Positions 9,669-63,252 of a stretch of DNA of 64,000 bases are shown in pieces (the first letter of the stretch is position 1; the number at the start of each line of letters is the position of its first letter). The notes under the pieces were generated by a model. That model had not been told where the DNA came from. It did not search any database and saw nothing but the letters and a program-made list of their open reading frames with translations. The stretch is taken from assembly GCA_018830565.1 (NCBI GenBank), contig JAHJRX010000045.1, positions 10,626 to 74,625 on the forward strand. The letters run 5' to 3'. This DNA is from a bacterium. Its GTDB lineage: Bacteria > UBA9089 > JAHJRX01. The position numbers were made by a program, and so were the translations under genes.

Positions 9669-9742
9669 TGGGGAGTCGTCTAGGGGTAGGACACAAGACT
9701 CTGGATCTTGCTGCGAGGGTTCGAATCCTTCCTCCCCAGCCA
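9669..9742 (+). tRNA. tRNA-Gln (anticodon CTG)
   Basis: Hand-folded cloverleaf: acceptor TGGGGAG/CTCCCCA, 3-bp D stem typical of tRNA-Gln, anticodon stem CAAGA/TCTTG with loop CTCTGGA, T-loop TTCGAAT, CCA encoded. Confidence 0.8.
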
Positions 9743-9747
9743 AAAAA

Positions 9748-9823
9748 GGCGCTATCGTCTAGAGGCCTAGGACAGGTGGTTCTCAGCCATCAGACCGGGG
9801 TTCGAATCCCCGTAGCGCTACCA
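9748..9823 (+). tRNA. tRNA-Glu (anticodon CTC)
   Basis: Acceptor GGCGCTA/TAGCGCT (G1-U72 wobble), D arm TCGTCTAGAGGCCTAGGAC as in bacterial tRNA-Glu, anticodon loop TTCTCAG, T arm CGGGG-TTCGAAT-CCCCG, CCA encoded. Confidence 0.8.
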
Positions 9824-58188: not shown

Positions 58189-58394
58189 AGATTTGTAACT
58201 ATTTACCCAAGTGAAGTGCCTTTTCTGTAACTCATTGAAATTCATTTCAAATTTAATTTGCAATGAAGTTTTTTTTAAAGAACACTTCAGTTGAATAGAG
58301 TGTTACTAAGATTTTAATATTGCTGTAACAAAGATTTTAATATTGCTTGACAAAATAATAGTCTATCTTTTAAAATAAAAAAAAAGGAGGATGA

Positions 58395-59453
58395 TTGGTG
58401 GTTTTAACGCAAGAAAGTAAAGAAAAAGCTTTAGATATGGCCATATCTCAAATTGAAAAACAATTTGGGAAAGGTTCAGTCATGCGATTAGGAGATGAAA
58501 GGATAATAAAAGATATCTCTGTAATTCCTACCGGATCTTTATCTTTAGACATTGCTATTGGTGTGGGAGGGATACCCCGAGGCAGGGTAATTGAAATTTA
58601 TGGCCAGGAATCTTCGGGAAAGACCACTTTAACTCTTCATATCATTGCTCAGGCCCAAAAACAAGGGGGCATAGCTGCTTTTATTGATGCAGAGCATGCC
58701 TTAGATCCAACCCATGCTAAAAAGATTGGAGTAGATATAGATAGTTTGTTAATCTCCCAACCTGATACCGGAGAGCAAGCTTTGGAAATTACGGAGACTT
58801 TAGTCAGAAGTGGAGCTATAGATGTGGTGGTCATTGATTCTGTAGCTGCTTTGACACCCAAAGCTGAAATTGAAGGTGAAATGGGAGATAGTCATATGGG
58901 CTTACAAGCTCGTTTAATGTCACAAGCTTTACGTAAATTAACGGCCGTAGTGAGCAAGTCCAATACCGCAGTTATCTTTATTAATCAAATTCGGATGAAG
59001 ATAGGGGTGATGTTTGGTAATCCAGAAACTACTACCGGTGGAAATGCTCTTAAATTTTACTCTTCTTTAAGATTAGACATGCGTACTATAGAATTAATTA
59101 AAGAAGGAGATGTGGTTATTGGTAACCGCGTAAAAGTAAAAGTAGCTAAAAATAAGATTGCTCCTCCTTTTAGGATTGCCGAGTTTGATATGATTTATAA
59201 GAGTGGTATTTCTTATGAAGGAAGTTTAATTGATTTAGCTTTAGAGAATAATTTTGTTCAAAGATCTGGTGCTTGGTTTTCTCTGGGGGACACCCGTTTA
59301 GGCCAAGGGCGAGAAAATGTCAAGAAATATCTCTTTGAGAATAAAGAAATCTGTAATCAATTAGAACAAGAGATTAAAAAGAAGTACCCATTTATTTATC
59401 TTTATTCTGAAAGTCAAGCTCTTAAGGAGTCTTCTAATCGCAAGGAAGATTAG
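58395..59453 (+). CDS. recA: recombinase RecA
   Basis: Walker [10 protein letters not shown]; RecA L1/L2 loops; 352 aa. Confidence 0.95.
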
Positions 59454-59514: not shown

Positions 59515-60507
59515 ATGCCCGGAGAAAAAATCTTAATTGTTGACGATGATCTAGAAATAGCTTTGGTCTTGAAAGCAATCTTTGAAAAAGAGAACTTTAG
59601 GCCTTATGCAGTTAATAATGGAAAGGAAGCTGTGGAATTAGCCAGGACATTATTTCCAGATCTAATTATTTTAGATATCCTTATGCCTAAGATTAGTGGT
59701 TATGAGGTATGTAAAAAACTACGGCATGATTTTCATACCAGTCATATTCCCATTATTGTTTTATCCGTTAAAGATCATACTCTTGACAAGATCAAAGGAT
59801 TAAAGATAGGAGCAGATGATTATGTCACTAAACCATTTAGTAGTGAAGAATTAGTAGCTCGGATTAAAGCGGTCTTACGTCGGACTCATTTAGAAAGGGA
59901 TTGTAACCCTTTAACTCAATTACCAGGAAATCTGGCGATTGAACATCAAATTAAGAATAGATTAAACTTAGGATTGCCCTTTGGTTTTATGTATGCAGAT
60001 TTAGATAATTTTAAACCTTTTAATGATTATCATGGATATAGTAGGGGAGATTTAGCCATTAAACTTTTAGCTAATATTATCTTAAGTTCGATAAAAAAGC
60101 ATGGAAATTTGGATGACTTTGTAGGTCATATCGGGGGAGATGATTTTATTATTATTACCCGAAAGATAGAGTCTATCGAGGATATTTGTAAGAATATTAT
60201 CGAGAATTTAAAAGTATCTTCCCTTGATCTCTTTGGCCAAAAAGATCGTCAGCAAGGCTATTTTGAAATACTTGATCGCCGAGGAAATGCTAAAAAGTTT
60301 CCTGCCCGTTTAGACATTACTATTGCTATTACCTCTAACCAATATGCAAGCTTTACTAACTCTTTACAGATTAGTGATACTTTAGCTGAAATAAAGAAGT
60401 ATGGCAAACAAGTAGAAGGAAGTGTTTTCATTATTGATCGCAGGGAAAAAAAGAAAATTACTAAACTTACAGATGTTATAGTACCGATTAATGAAAATTT
60501 GACTTAG
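59515..60507 (+). CDS. response regulator with REC domain plus GGDEF-type domain carrying a GGDDF motif (paralog 1)
   Basis: REC motifs DDD/D53-like/K; GGDEF-domain landmarks NPLTQLPGN, ADLDNFKPFNDYHGYSRGD, GHIGGDDF. Confidence 0.7.
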   Translation: MPGEKILIVDDDLEIALVLKAIFEKENFRPYAVNNGKEAVELARTLFPDLIILDILMPKISGYEVCKKLRHDFHTSHIPIIVLSVKDHTLDKIKGLKIGADDYVTKPFSSEELVARIKAVLRRTHLERDCNPLTQLPGNLAIEHQIKNRLNLGLPFGFMYADLDNFKPFNDYHGYSRGDLAIKLLANIILSSIKKHGNLDDFVGHIGGDDFIIITRKIESIEDICKNIIENLKVSSLDLFGQKDRQQGYFEILDRRGNAKKFPARLDITIAITSNQYASFTNSLQISDTLAEIKKYGKQVEGSVFIIDRREKKKITKLTDVIVPINENLT

Positions 60508-60545
60508 AGCAAATTAGTTTGACTCCAAACGAGTTTATCTTTTAT
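60486..60545 (-). repeat. intergenic repeat element, copy E (reverse orientation), overlapping the last 7 codons of paralog 1
   Basis: Reverse complement matches the core of copies A and C, including the AATTTG-CTCTAAGT-CAAATT hairpin. Confidence 0.75.
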
Positions 60546-60576
60546 TACTTAATATCATTATTCCAAAACAACTACT

Positions 60577-61536
60577 ATGCCATTTCAAAAGGATAATATG
60601 GCTGGCGAATTAATATTATTAGTAGATGATGAAGTAGATATGCTTAATCTTTTAAAAAGCTTCTTCATGGAAAATGGTTATTCCTGTATAGAAGCTCAAA
60701 GCGGTATTCAAGCTCTTGAAATTGCTCGAATGATTCATCCTGATTTGATTGTTTTAGATATTATGATGCCTCATATGGATGGCTTTGTTGTATGTCAAAA
60801 GCTAAAGAATGATTATGTGACCAGTCATATTCCTATTGTGCTTCTTACTGTAAAAAGAGAAACTTCTGATCGGGTAAAAGGCTTAGAATTAGGGGCTGAT
60901 GATTATATAGCTAAACCATTTGATCTTTCTGAGCTCTTGGCTCGAGTTAAAGCGGTCTTACGTCGGACTCATTTAGAAAGGGATTGTAACCCTTTAACTC
61001 AATTACCAGGAAATCTGGCTATTGAACATCAAATTAAGAATAGATTAAAGAATGATACTCCTTTTGCCTTTTTATATGCCGACATAGATGATTTTAAGTT
61101 TTTTAATGATTATTATGGATATAGTAGGGGTGATTACGCCATTAAGACTTTTTCTAATGTGATCTTGTCTTCGATAAGAAAGCACGGAAGTTCAGAGGAT
61201 TTTGTAGGTCATATCGGGGGAGATGATTTTATTGTTATTACTAAGTTAGAGGCAGCTATTGACATTTGTAAAGACATTATTGAAAATACTGCCTTTTCTA
61301 TACCTCAATTATTTGATGAAGAAGATCTAAAGAGAGGTTATTTTGAAACCTTGACCCGAAGAGGAAAGAAAAAAGTTGCTGCTAATCTTACCGTGACTAT
61401 TGCAGTAACTACTACTGAATACAGTCAGTTTGAAAATTCCATGGAAATAAGTAGCATCTTAGCAGCGCTAAAACGTTATGGGAAGAACAAAGGTGGCAAT
61501 CTTTATGTAGTAGATCGGCGAAAAAAAGTTAGATAG
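60577..61536 (+). CDS. REC-GGDEF(GGDDF) response regulator, paralog 2
   Basis: Same architecture as paralog 1; shares a 100-nt near-identical patch with paralog 1. Confidence 0.7.
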   Translation: MPFQKDNMAGELILLVDDEVDMLNLLKSFFMENGYSCIEAQSGIQALEIARMIHPDLIVLDIMMPHMDGFVVCQKLKNDYVTSHIPIVLLTVKRETSDRVKGLELGADDYIAKPFDLSELLARVKAVLRRTHLERDCNPLTQLPGNLAIEHQIKNRLKNDTPFAFLYADIDDFKFFNDYYGYSRGDYAIKTFSNVILSSIRKHGSSEDFVGHIGGDDFIVITKLEAAIDICKDIIENTAFSIPQLFDEEDLKRGYFETLTRRGKKKVAANLTVTIAVTTTEYSQFENSMEISSILAALKRYGKNKGGNLYVVDRRKKVR

Positions 61537-61570
61537 GGATAGATAGAGATTAGATAGGAGTGGAAAAGGT

Positions 61571-62506
61571 ATGGATAAAGAGACGATCTTAATTGTGGAT
61601 GATGATCTTGATTTAACTGAAATCCTAAAAACTGTTTTACAGAAAAAAGGTTATAAAACCCTTATTGCGGAAAATGGTTTTTTAGCCTTGGAATTAGCCT
61701 TTAATCATAACCCATCTTTAATCTTGTTAGATGTGATGATGCCTGAGTTAGATGGCTTTGGAGTATGTCAAAAACTAAGAGATAATTTTTATACCAGTCA
61801 TATTCCTATCATTATGTTAACTTGTCGGGAGGAGTTAGAGAGTAAAGTTAAAGGACTTACTTTAGGAGCAGATGATTATGTAACTAAGCCTTTTAATTTT
61901 TCAGAGCTTTTAGCTCGCATTAAAGCTGTCTTAAGACGAACCCATAGGGAACGAGGTTCTAATCCTTTAACAGCTTTACCAGGGGGCAACTTAATTGAAG
62001 AACAAATAAAGAAGAGATTAAGGGAAGGTAAATATTCAGCTTTCTTATATTTAGACTTAAATTACTTCAAGGCTTATAATGATTATTATGGATACAAGAG
62101 AGGTGATCAGGTTATTAAGCATCTGGCTGAAGTTTTGCTTACCGCAATTGAGAAAGATAAAGATAGGGATGATTTTGTTGGTCATATCGGGGGAGATGAT
62201 TTTATTATTATTACTACTCCTCAAAAATCAGAAGTATTAGCTAATCAAATTATTAAGAAGATAGAAGAGACTTCTCACCAGTTTTTTGAGGATCGGGATT
62301 TAAAGGCTAGGTCTATTGAGATTAAGACTCGATCAGGGGAGGTAAATAAGTATCCGGCCAAAATTACTGTTACCATCGGGGGTATTTCTAGTCAAGATCT
62401 GAATATAAAGAGCCATATTCAGGTAAGTGATTCCTTAGCAGAAATTAAGCGATATTTAAAGAAAAAAGAAGGAAGTAATTTTATGGTAGAGAGAAGAAAA
62501 ATTTAA
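61571..62506 (+). CDS. REC-GGDEF(GGDDF) response regulator, paralog 3
   Basis: Same architecture as paralogs 1 and 2; more divergent. Confidence 0.7.
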   Translation: MDKETILIVDDDLDLTEILKTVLQKKGYKTLIAENGFLALELAFNHNPSLILLDVMMPELDGFGVCQKLRDNFYTSHIPIIMLTCREELESKVKGLTLGADDYVTKPFNFSELLARIKAVLRRTHRERGSNPLTALPGGNLIEEQIKKRLREGKYSAFLYLDLNYFKAYNDYYGYKRGDQVIKHLAEVLLTAIEKDKDRDDFVGHIGGDDFIIITTPQKSEVLANQIIKKIEETSHQFFEDRDLKARSIEIKTRSGEVNKYPAKITVTIGGISSQDLNIKSHIQVSDSLAEIKRYLKKKEGSNFMVERRKI

Positions 62507-62541: not shown

Positions 62542-63252
62542 ATGATTATTGCGCAGCAAAAACCAATTCAAGAAATAGAGGCGATGGTGGCTGGTTACCA
62601 GAAAATTTTAGTGGTTGGTTGTGGTACTTGTGTTACAGTTTGCATGGCTGGTGGAGAAAAGGAAGTAGGCATTATGGCTTCTTGTTTACGAATGTCCTTA
62701 AGATTGGCTGGGAAAACCCCAGAAATTATTGAGGAATGTATTCAACGGCAATGTGAGTGGGAATTTGTAGATGAGTTAAAGGATAAAGTAGCCAGGGTAG
62801 AAGCCATAATTTCTTCTGCTTGTGGAGTAGGAGTACAAGCACTGGTGGAACGATTTAGTAATAAGCCAATTTATCCAGCTCTTAATACCAGCTTCATGGG
62901 ACTTCCCCAAGAGCCTGGTTTTTGGTTAGAAACCTGTCGGGGTTGCGGAAATTGTGGCTTAGGTAAATTTGGCGGTATTTGTCCTATTGCTCGTTGCTCA
63001 AAGACATTACTTAATGGTCCTTGTGGTGGCAGCCAGAATGGTAAATGCGAGATAGATAAAGAGATGAATTGCGGCTGGCAGTTAATCTACCAACGACTAA
63101 AAGCATTAGGGCAGATTAATCAGATAGAGGAGATAGTTTTACCTAAAGATTGGTCCACAGATAGAGATAAAGGACAACGAAGGATAGTCAGAGAAGATGT
63201 CTATTCTAATAGTTATAACGAAAACCAGACATTAAGAAATAATACCAAGTAA
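62542..63252 (+). CDS. metV: MetV-like protein (methylenetetrahydrofolate reductase C-terminal-domain / zinc-ribbon iron-sulfur protein)
   Basis: Cys-rich motifs GCGTCVTVCMAGGE and CRGCGNCGLGKFGGICPIARCSK; immediately precedes metF. Confidence 0.6.
   Translation: MIIAQQKPIQEIEAMVAGYQKILVVGCGTCVTVCMAGGEKEVGIMASCLRMSLRLAGKTPEIIEECIQRQCEWEFVDELKDKVARVEAIISSACGVGVQALVERFSNKPIYPALNTSFMGLPQEPGFWLETCRGCGNCGLGKFGGICPIARCSKTLLNGPCGGSQNGKCEIDKEMNCGWQLIYQRLKALGQINQIEEIVLPKDWSTDRDKGQRRIVREDVYSNSYNENQTLRNNTK

What the first reader, a model, noticed from the sequence alone, without database searches (positions are those of the whole stretch)
59515..62506. Three tandem REC-GGDEF paralogs with a non-canonical GGDDF motif and nucleotide-identical patches
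All three carry GGDDF instead of GG(D/E)EF, so the catalytic glutamate is replaced by Asp. A ~100-nt stretch (59872-59970 versus 60952-61050) is nearly identical between paralogs 1 and 2. A ~35-nt stretch around the GHIGGDDFIIIT motif is nearly identical in all three, including at synonymous sites, although the genes otherwise differ by about 40-50%. This points to ongoing gene conversion or to a selected nucleic-acid-level element. The proteins may be altered-specificity cyclases, c-di-GMP receptors or inactive decoys sitting next to recA and metVF.
Basis: seen in the sequence. Interest (0 to 1): 0.55.

Follow-up and report, generated by a model that had tools for sequence, protein, structure and literature searches.

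The report
Three tandem GGDDF response-regulator cyclases
Three neighbouring genes encode phosphorylation-controlled enzymes that probably make the bacterial signal c-di-GMP; their odd GGDDF motif is the normal signature of a large, little-studied subfamily, and the identical DNA stretch between two of them is a recent gene-conversion scar.

Summary
Three + strand paralogs (59515-60507, 60577-61536, 61571-62506) each encode REC + GGDEF with GHIGGDDF. Genes 1 and 2 share a 103-nt tract that is 102/103 identical, against 63% elsewhere.

- GGDDF is not a local degeneration. All 120 best homologs and 145 of 147 diverse cluster representatives carry H(I/V)GGDD[F/Y]. About 1,200 50%-identity clusters score E<=1e-30.
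- Metal- and guanine-binding residues and the receiver phospho-acceptor are invariant. There is no RxxD I-site. This argues for active, phosphorylation-gated cyclases rather than decoys.
- Geobacteraceae HAMP-GGDDF proteins share 37-41% identity across the domain. They fit the description of GSU1937, the one GGDDF enzyme shown to be active.
- The triplication predates speciation: orthologs by position are 72-86% identical, paralogs 48-60%.
- Two related genomes have ordinary synonymous divergence in the same tract, and no RNA covariation was found. The tract is therefore lineage-specific gene conversion, not a nucleic-acid element.
- The GGDDF patch is mostly invariant residues plus AT-biased codons. 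The window strain adds a small recent homogenisation.

Verdict: a modestly interesting new member of a known kind.

The parts
59515..60507 (+). g1: REC-GGDDF response regulator, 330 aa (REC about aa 6-118; helical linker; GGDEF-type domain about aa 129-312; GGDDF at aa 207-211)
   Evidence: ORF; Pfam REC E 1.1e-28 and GGDEF E 4e-15. AF2 model has mean pLDDT 89.7. Best PDB folds are WspR, PleD and DgcR.
60577..61536 (+). g2: REC-GGDDF response regulator, 319 aa from the first ATG. The true start is probably the ATG at 60598 (312 aa, MAGEL...).
   Evidence: ORF; Pfam. Orthologs L001 b and L002 b start at MAGELILL. AAAGGA lies 5 nt upstream of 60598.
61571..62506 (+). g3: REC-GGDDF response regulator, 311 aa
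   Evidence: ORF; Pfam REC E 1.5e-28 and GGDEF E 6.1e-18.
59864..59966 (+). Gene-conversion tract, copy in g1. It encodes the end of REC helix alpha5, the linker and the start of the GGDEF domain (about aa 117-151).
   Evidence: 102/103 nt identical to 60947-61049. Not homogenised in related genomes.
60947..61049 (+). Gene-conversion tract, copy in g2
   Evidence: Same as above. The sister strain L087 has one further difference here (CGG to CGA), so 101/103.
60124..60150 (+). GHIGGDDFI codon patch in g1 (27-nt core identical in all three genes)
   Evidence: The rare codons ATC GGG are shared by all three genes in the window but not in sister strain L087.
61207..61233 (+). GHIGGDDFI codon patch in g2
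62180..62206 (+). GHIGGDDFI codon patch in g3
58395..59453 (+). recA, upstream neighbour. Synteny is conserved (context, not part of the signalling unit).
   Evidence: ORF; RecA Pfam families in L001, L002 and L087. A promoter-like site (11/12) lies at 58347-58376, and no + strand terminator-like site lies between recA and metV.
62542..63252 (+). metV-like gene (PF12225), followed by MTHFR; downstream neighbour (context)
   Evidence: Pfam E 2e-36; L087 gene table.

Best explanation
The three genes are ancient tandem paralogs of orphan response regulators. Their output is a GGDEF-type nucleotide cyclase domain of the 'H(I/V)GGDDF' subfamily.

Inferred mechanism:
1. An unidentified histidine kinase phosphorylates the receiver Asp (D54 in g1).
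2. This drives OmpR/PhoB-like receiver dimerisation through the alpha4-beta5-alpha5 face.
3. The continuous alpha5-linker helix brings two cyclase domains together.
4. Two GTP are condensed to c-di-GMP. The fourth-position Asp (D210) stands in for the usual Glu as the general base acting across the dimer.
5. There is no product inhibition, because the I-site is missing.

GGDDF is the subfamily's normal, selected motif and not a degeneration.

The 103-nt identical tract between g1 and g2 is a recent gene-conversion event confined to the window species. The identity of the GGDDF patch is mainly invariant residues plus AT-biased codon use, with a very recent small homogenisation in the window strain.

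Shown: domain identity, the conservation pattern, orthology, and lineage-specific homogenisation. Inferred: enzymatic activity, the product, the activation route, and the kinase partner.
For: Domains and fold:
- Pfam REC + GGDEF match above cut-off.
- The AF2 model has pLDDT 89.7 and a single helix over residues 110-128.
- The best PDB folds are WspR 3bre, PleD and DgcR.

Family-wide motif:
- 120/120 best homologs carry GGDDF.
- 145/147 representatives of 50%-identity clusters carry it.
- 1,204 representatives score E<=1e-30, against 154,746 at E<=1e-3, so this is a discrete subfamily.

Invariant residues:
- Receiver, in the 54-sequence REC-type alignment A2 only: D11, D54 and K106 are invariant, and T84 is at 90% or more.
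- Cyclase domain, over 147 diverse domains: D162, K167, D171, G178, H205, G207, G208, D209, D210 and K298 are invariant. N170, F211, R255, K294 and R310 are at 98% or more, and S303 is at 93%.
- These include the equivalents of PleD D327, N335 and E370 (alignment).
- D179 (PleD D344 equivalent, the guanine specifier) is invariant in the 54 REC-type proteins. Family-wide it is D in 110 of 147, N in 21 and S in 16.

Other support:
- GGDDF is compatible with catalysis. A GSU1937 GGDDF-domain fusion made cGAMP and c-di-GMP, and GADDF was dead (PMC8835794).
- Geobacteraceae HAMP-GGDDF(Ser) proteins are 37-41% identical to g1 across the whole domain.
- One family member lies 4 nt downstream of a GAF-GAF-HD_5 (HD-GYP-type) gene.

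Gene conversion:
- Orthology follows gene position: 72-86% for orthologs against 48-60% for paralogs.
- The tract is 99% identical in the window but 81% and 80% in L001 and L002.
- Only the tract segment is anomalous.
- The tract is also present in an independent assembly that is 99.26% identical to the window.
Against: - No enzymatic data exist for any REC-type member.
- The fourth-position Glu is the proposed general base, and E->Q kills GacA (PMC6456294). Asp is shorter. Wild-type GSU1937 and three of four fusions were inactive in E. coli.
- PA3258 (GGDDF-EAL) shows no cyclase phenotype.
- Several residues that are near-universal in canonical cyclases are replaced family-wide. The cross-dimer Arg (PleD R300) is N/G. 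The His of NDxxGH is Y/F. The Arg two residues before GG is His.
- The C-terminal ~75 residues do not align to Pfam GGDEF or to any PDB GGDEF at sequence level.
- No kinase, PilZ, EAL, other GGDEF or c-di-GMP riboswitch was found in the 64-kb window. That check for protein partners used simple motif searches only.
Confidence: 0.65

Rival explanations
1. The GGDDF domains are catalytically dead. The proteins act as phosphate sinks, decoys or c-di-GMP/GTP-binding adaptors.
For: The canonical general base Glu is replaced by Asp and the cross-dimer Arg is absent (PMC6456294). PA3258 (GGDDF-EAL) has no cyclase phenotype, and wild-type GSU1937 was inactive in E. coli. Three orphan receivers in a row could compete for one kinase.
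Against: The metal- and base-binding residues and the GG turn are invariant or nearly so across 147 diverse representatives. Degenerate receptor domains are not expected to keep these. The RxxD I-site that receptor-type GGDEF domains use is absent. A GGDDF domain has been shown to be active.
Confidence: 0.15
2. The subfamily is an altered-chemistry cyclase. The co-substituted active-site residues change the product (for example a different cyclic or linear dinucleotide) or the metal or regulation, so the three proteins do not feed the c-di-GMP pool.
For: Conserved DGC residues are replaced in a coordinated, family-wide way, and new invariant residues appear (R255, K294, S303, R310). The base-specificity position varies D/N/S within the family. 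The C-terminal half is divergent, and no solved structure belongs to the subfamily.
Against: g1-g3 keep N170 and D179, the guanine-reading pair. The only tested GGDDF domain made c-di-GMP and cGAMP, the ordinary GGDEF products. Pfam gives only GGDEF; the Cas10 palm hit is E 0.033.
Confidence: 0.15
3. The nucleotide-identical stretches are a selected nucleic-acid element (RNA structure, regulatory site or recombination signal) embedded in the coding sequence.
For: The tract folds somewhat better than shuffles (z -2.4 and -2.2). Identity extends to synonymous sites.
Against: Orthologous and paralogous tracts in L001 and L002 differ freely at synonymous sites. The predicted helices show no covariation, and pairing is no better than shuffles. 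Rfam finds nothing in the region at gathering thresholds.
Confidence: 0.03
4. The identical tract is an assembly artefact of a metagenome-assembled genome, in which reads of paralogs were collapsed or chimerised.
For: The source appears to be an uncultured-organism assembly (names). Short identical segments between paralogs can arise from mis-assembly.
Against: An independent assembly (GCA_043814425.1, L087), 99.26% identical overall, carries the same tract at 101/103. The tract is in frame and flanked by paralog-specific sequence on both sides.
Confidence: 0.02

Closest known systems
DgcR of Leptospira biflexa (small prototypic Rec-GGDEF cyclase; PDB 6zxb/6zxc/6zxm), with PleD and WspR
   Same: Same two-domain plan (REC, a helical linker, GGDEF) and similar length. 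They are among the top PDB matches by fold (ranks 1-15), and the best by sequence that cover both domains (PleD E 2.4e-58, DgcR E 2.4e-34; several receiver-only chains score between them). The NCBIfam DgcR model hits g3 at 101 bits, far below its cut-off of 500. Phospho-acceptor, metal- and guanine-binding residues are conserved.
   Different: The motif is GGDDF, not GG(D/E)EF. There is no RxxD I-site. The cross-dimer Arg is replaced by Asn, and His precedes GG in place of Arg. The C-terminal half does not align at sequence level. Identity is only about 20%.
GSU1937 of Geobacter sulfurreducens (HAMP-'Hypr' GGDDF; PMC8835794)
   Same: It is the only enzyme with a GGDDF motif reported as active. 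Geobacteraceae and Desulfuromonadales HAMP-GGDDF(Ser) proteins that fit its description share the whole domain with g1: 37-41% identity, E 1e-39 to 1e-46, including HxGGDDF, the DRxG hairpin and the C-terminal DRR.
   Different: The input is a transmembrane HAMP module instead of REC. Ser stands at the base-specificity position (cGAMP/c-di-GMP) where g1-g3 have Asp.
GacA / Hypr GGDEF cGAMP synthases (PMC6456294)
   Same: REC-GGDEF architecture. That work defines the roles of the fourth-position acid (cross-dimer general base) and of the cross-dimer residue at the NRR position. Both are changed in the present subfamily.
   Different: Hypr enzymes have Ser/Thr at position 348 and a GGDEF motif. 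g1-g3 have Asp at that position and GGDDF.
Concerted evolution by gene conversion between tandem bacterial paralogs (general phenomenon; from my own knowledge)
   Same: A short, sharply bounded tract is identical, including at synonymous sites. It lies between adjacent paralogs that are otherwise saturated at synonymous sites, and it is lineage-specific.
   Different: Nothing unusual. The tract happens to cover the receiver alpha5-linker-cyclase junction.

Membership tests
GGDEF-domain diguanylate cyclase (Pfam PF00990; PleD/WspR/DgcR type) | GGDEF-domain fold and Pfam match above the gathering score | tested here: met
   56-65 bits against a cut-off of 23.8. Foldseek top hits are WspR, PleD and DgcR, E 1e-21 to 1e-17.
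GGDEF-domain diguanylate cyclase (Pfam PF00990; PleD/WspR/DgcR type) | Signature GG(D/E)EF with Glu at the fourth position (cross-dimer general base) | tested here: not met
   GGDDF in all three genes and in essentially the whole subfamily. The role of the Glu is taken from PMC6456294.
GGDEF-domain diguanylate cyclase (Pfam PF00990; PleD/WspR/DgcR type) | Metal-binding acids (PleD D327, E370) and guanine-binding Asn335/Asp344 | tested here: met
   D162, D209 and N170 are invariant or nearly so across the family, and D179 is present in g1-g3.
GGDEF-domain diguanylate cyclase (Pfam PF00990; PleD/WspR/DgcR type) | Cross-dimer Arg of the LTGLxNRR motif (conserved in 94% of predicted cyclases, PMC6456294) | tested here: not met
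   The aligned position (g1 N139) is N in 113 and G in 24 of 147 family domains, and is never Arg.
GGDEF-domain diguanylate cyclase (Pfam PF00990; PleD/WspR/DgcR type) | Allosteric I-site RxxD five residues before GG (common, not universal) | tested here: not met
   NLDD, SSED and DRDD in g1-g3. The Arg position is N/S/G/T in most family members.
GGDEF-domain diguanylate cyclase (Pfam PF00990; PleD/WspR/DgcR type) | Synthesis of c-di-GMP from GTP | not testable with these tools
   Needs an enzyme assay. The only support is by analogy with the GSU1937 GGDDF fusion.
Response regulator receiver (PF00072) | Acidic pocket, phospho-acceptor Asp, conserved Thr/Ser and Lys | tested here: met
   Pfam E 1e-28 to 3e-30 over the full profile. 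D11, D54 and K106 are invariant and T84 is at 90% or more in 54 relatives.
H(I/V)GGDDF subfamily (includes Geobacteraceae HAMP-GGDDF proteins of the GSU1937 type) | Whole-domain similarity plus the hallmark set PLTxLPG, NDxYG, HxGGDDF, R255, K294, K298, S303, R310 | tested here: met
   g1-g3 carry all of them except Tyr173, which is His in g1. The HAMP-type proteins are 37-41% identical to g1 over 182-186 residues. Family hits score E 1e-46 to 1e-67, against 1.7e-12 for the best PDB GGDEF.
Hypr GGDEF (cGAMP synthase) | Ser/Thr at the base-specificity position (GacA S348) | tested here: not met
   Asp (RGD) in g1, g2 and g3. Ser and Asn occur in other branches of the subfamily.
Cas10 / mCpol palm cyclases (GGDD motif) | Match to Cas10 or mCpol palm profiles | tested here: not met
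   Only Cas10-Cmr2_palm2 at E 0.033 (14.7 bits, cut-off 27) for g2, and nothing for g1 or g3. PADLOC gives no defence-system hit beyond the receiver domain.
Degenerate GGDEF c-di-GMP receptor | Retained RxxD I-site together with a decayed active site | tested here: not met
   The I-site is absent and the active-site residues are invariant.

The most novel reading that the evidence does not exclude
The H(I/V)GGDDF domain is a structurally distinct and widespread lineage of GGDEF-type cyclases, with at least about 1,200 clusters at 50% identity across many phyla. Several near-universal catalytic and cross-dimer residues are co-substituted in it: the general base Glu is Asp, the cross-dimer Arg is Asn, the Arg before GG is His, and NDxxGH is NDxYG(F/Y). 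New invariant Arg, Lys and Ser residues appear. This implies a re-engineered dimeric active site with its own regulation or product range. In this clade the three receivers may work as heterodimers. Conversion of the alpha5-linker-alpha0 junction would then keep g1 and g2 mutually compatible.
Probability: 0.2. Interest if true: 0.6.

Novelty: new member of a known kind. Interest (0 to 1): 0.35.

Why it matters
The finding corrects a tempting misreading. GGDDF here is not a broken active site. It is the conserved hallmark of a large GGDEF subfamily that has no solved structure and, at most, one indirectly tested member. Genome annotators and c-di-GMP censuses that score 'GG(D/E)EF = active, anything else = degenerate' would misclassify thousands of proteins. 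The subfamily is a natural experiment on the proposed cross-dimer general base. The locus also gives a clean, datable example of short-tract gene conversion between old tandem paralogs. Beyond that it is an ordinary signalling gene cluster.

Tried and rejected
1. Conserved RNA or DNA element in the identical tract. Folding gave z about -2.3. Orthologs differ at synonymous sites and show no covariation, and Rfam finds nothing there. Rejected.
2. Cas10/mCpol-like GGDD palm. Only a sub-threshold Pfam hit. Rejected.
3. Anti-phage defence context. PADLOC hits touch only the receiver domain. Rejected.
4. Other conversion tracts. The segment-by-segment comparison shows that only cols 369-474 are anomalous in the window relative to L001.
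5. Partners in the window. No HisKA, PilZ, EAL or other GGDEF motif by simple motif searches, and no c-di-GMP riboswitch. The rest of the genome was not available.
6. Taxonomic placement through RecA. The closest relatives are only unclassified 'bacterium' MAGs (81-83%), then about 73% across several phyla. Uninformative.
7. Direct proof that GSU1937 belongs to the subfamily. Its sequence was not retrievable: the top 120 hits named other Geobacteraceae, the supplement holds no sequence, and the PNAS paper is not held.
8. The genome-contig scan was swamped by the generic receiver pattern GADDY(I/V)TKP. It gave only about ten true family loci out of 80.
9. L088, a RecA relative, has no response-regulator cluster.
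Full report
**What is there**

Window 59515-62506 holds three same-strand ORFs of 330, 319 and 311 aa. Each matches Pfam Response_reg over the full profile (E 1e-28 to 3e-30). Each also matches GGDEF (E 4e-15 to 6e-18, 56-65 bits against a cut-off of 23.8), but only over profile positions 5 to about 111 of 161. All three read GHIGGDDF.

Pairwise identity is 58/50/49% in protein and 67/61/60% in DNA. The cluster lies between recA (58395-59453) and a metV-like gene (PF12225, 62542-63252). There is no + strand terminator-like site in between, and one strong promoter-like site lies upstream of recA.

An AlphaFold model of g1, built on a 54-sequence alignment, has mean pLDDT 89.7. It shows one continuous helix over residues 110-128 joining the receiver to the cyclase domain. 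Its best PDB matches are the REC-GGDEF cyclases WspR, PleD and DgcR.

**The identical stretches**

The long tract is 59864-59966 in g1 and 60947-61049 in g2. It is 102 of 103 nt identical, with perfect runs of 73 and 29 nt. The longest run in 2000 site shuffles was 38, and the sequence occurs nowhere else in the window.

At residues that are identical and degenerate, g1 and g2 use the same codon 32 times out of 33 in the tract. Elsewhere the figure is 86 of 146 (p = 4e-6).

The patch around GHIGGDDFI gives perfect runs of 27-35 nt in all three pairs.

**Orthologs settle the origin of the tract**

Three related loci were recovered:
- L001 (GCA_030017825.1): recA followed by three response regulators.
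- L002 (JGI 3300037673): pgsA-pgpA-thpR-recA-RRa, plus a partial RRb.
- L087 (GCA_043814425.1): 99.26% identical to the window over 5.7 kb, with the same recA-RR1-RR2-RR3-metV-metF order.

Proteins group by position (a with a 72-82%, b with b 74-86%, c with c 73%) and not by genome (paralogs 48-62%). The triplication therefore predates these species.

In L001 and L002 the same tract encodes almost the same peptide in paralogs a and b. The DNA, however, is only 81% and 80% identical, and codon identity is at background level (18/29 and 16/28). Both window paralogs also share PGNL where every ortholog has PGNI. A segment-by-segment comparison shows that only this tract is anomalous in the window.

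The tract folds slightly better than shuffles (z -2.4 and -2.2). Across seven paralogous and orthologous copies, though, the predicted helices pair no better than column shuffles and show no covariation.

I conclude that the tract is a gene-conversion event specific to the window species. It is not a conserved nucleic-acid element. It is also not an assembly artefact, because the independent L087 assembly carries it at 101/103.

**The GGDDF patch**

The residues are invariant and the genome's codon use is strongly biased (TTT 0.87, CAT 0.80, GAT 0.80). GGA GAT GAT TTT ATT is shared by every paralog in every genome examined.

The window's only real excess is the rare pair ATC GGG, present in all three genes. 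In the sister strain L087, g2 has ATT GGA, g3 has ATT GGG and g1 has GGC for the preceding Gly. The perfect identity in the window is therefore a very recent, small homogenisation layered on constraint and codon bias.

**GGDDF is a family signature**

The evidence for a discrete subfamily:
- All 120 best full-length homologs of g1 carry GGDDF, nearly always as H(I/V)GGDDF. They are 40-76% identical and named sources include Elusimicrobia, Baltobacteraceae and Eubacteriales.
- A domain-only profile searched against 1.84 billion cluster representatives found 154,746 proteins at E<=1e-3, but only 4,141 at 1e-10 and 1,204 at 1e-30.
- 145 of the 147 newly returned top hits carry H(I/V)GGDD[F/Y].
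- The best solved GGDEF structure scores only E 1.7e-12, over the N-terminal 110 of 187 positions. No structure of this subfamily exists.

Across 147 diverse domains the following are at least 93% conserved: PLTxLPG, D162, F166, K167, N170, D171, Y173, G174, G178, F202, G204, H205, G207, G208, D209, D210, F211, R255, K294, K298, S303 and R310.

By the profile alignment to PleD, several canonical features are kept:
- the metal ligands (D327, E370);
- the guanine-reading Asn;
- in g1-g3, the guanine-reading Asp (D179).

Other canonical residues are replaced family-wide:
- the cross-dimer Arg of NRR is Asn or Gly;
- the His of NDxxGH is Tyr or Phe;
- the Arg two residues before GG is His;
- the fourth motif residue is Asp.

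The RxxD I-site is absent. The receiver keeps D11, D54, T84 and K106.

This pattern fits a selected, working active site, not a decayed one.

**What the literature says**

'GGDDF' occurs in only six held papers. PMC8835794 reports GSU1937, a transmembrane HAMP protein with Ser at the specificity position and a GGDDF motif. It is described as the first active GGDDF enzyme. One of four GacA-GSU1937 fusions made cGAMP and c-di-GMP, and the GADDF mutant was dead.

PMC6456294 identifies the fourth-position Glu as the general base acting across the dimer (E->Q is inactive). It also identifies an Arg, present in 94% of cyclases, as a cross-dimer base-stacking residue.

The subfamily found here contains many HAMP-GGDDF proteins with Ser or Asn at the specificity position, from Geobacter, Geoalkalibacter and Desulfuromonas. 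They share 37-41% identity with g1 across the whole domain. They fit the description of GSU1937. I could not obtain that protein's sequence, so this link is inferred.

**Context elsewhere**

Members at 50-55% identity are single-copy and sit in unrelated neighbourhoods:
- One lies 4 nt downstream of a GAF-GAF-HD_5 gene. That gene has an HHE..DG motif but no GYP tripeptide.
- One lies next to a CBS-PAS histidine kinase.
- In two MAGs (L003 labelled Actinomycetota, L005 labelled Gammaproteobacteria) the gene lies between rpe and ribD.

Fusions also exist: REC-GGDDF-HATPase_c_2, REC-GGDDF-REC and multi-REC forms.

The window itself holds no kinase, PilZ, EAL or further GGDEF motif, and no c-di-GMP riboswitch. 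RecA places the organism among unclassified MAGs only.

**Mechanism proposed**

Shown: the domains, the conserved residues, the helical junction, orthology, and lineage-specific conversion.

Inferred:
1. Phosphorylation of D54 by an unlinked kinase.
2. Receiver dimerisation.
3. Juxtaposition of two cyclase domains.
4. Condensation of two GTP to c-di-GMP, with D210 as the cross-dimer base.
5. No product inhibition.

Rivals are a catalytically silent decoy or phosphate sink (0.15) and an altered product (0.15). Both need an enzyme assay to settle.

**Verdict**

The 'non-canonical motif' is the norm for a large, barely studied subfamily. These are new members of a known kind (REC-GGDEF cyclases of the GGDDF type) and of moderate interest. 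Their main value is as a pointer to a subfamily that deserves biochemical and structural work.

Noticed in passing
window 60577-60600: The first ATG of g2 (60577) is probably not the start. Orthologs begin at MAGELILL, which corresponds to the ATG at 60598. AAAGGA lies 5 nt upstream of that ATG, and nothing RBS-like precedes 60577.
   Followed up: partly
window 62011-62034 (g3, loop between helix alpha0 and strand beta1 of the cyclase domain): The window and the 99.26%-identical strain L087 differ at 12 sites in g3. Five of them fall within 24 nt. All but the first are non-synonymous (REGKY versus KGDKS). This could be a hypervariable loop or another small conversion patch, since three of the L087 states match g2.
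   Followed up: partly
P0069, P0093 (homologs; no window coordinates): Some family members are fused C-terminally to an RsbW/SpoIIAB-like HATPase_c_2 serine kinase domain (REC-GGDDF-HATPase_c_2). This hints at a link to partner-switching regulation.
   Followed up: no
L005 5336-10222 and L003 5334-10464: In two MAGs (L003 labelled Actinomycetota, L005 labelled Gammaproteobacteria) a single REC-GGDDF gene is wedged between rpe and ribD. The order confirmed by Pfam in L005 is priA-def-fmt-rpe-RR-ribD-ribE-ribBA-ribH, and L003 has matching ORF sizes and order. As in the window, it is an orphan regulator inside a housekeeping gene string with no kinase nearby.
   Followed up: partly
P0134-P0267 (representative hits): The base-specificity position of the subfamily is Asp in 110, Asn in 21 and Ser in 16 of 147 representatives. 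The Ser and Asn forms are mostly transmembrane, and HAMP-containing where checked. The Asn class has no described function, as far as I know.
   Followed up: partly
L084 318-1901: A GAF-GAF-HD_5 protein sits directly upstream of a family member. It has HHERYDGKG but lacks the GYP tripeptide, so it is an HD-GYP-like domain with a variant motif.
   Followed up: partly
L088 1737-3116: A RecA relative of 459 aa with two separate RecA_N matches. This suggests an insertion of about 100 residues (possibly an intein) in recA of another uncultured bacterium.
   Followed up: no
window 9669-9820: Two adjacent tRNA genes. They are the only Rfam matches at gathering threshold in the 64-kb window.
   Followed up: no
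P0041 residues 322-419: One family member gives a sub-threshold match to Cas10-Cmr2_palm2 (E 2.7e-4, 21.5 bits, cut-off 27). This reflects the shared GGDD palm motif. g2 gives E 0.033.
   Followed up: yes
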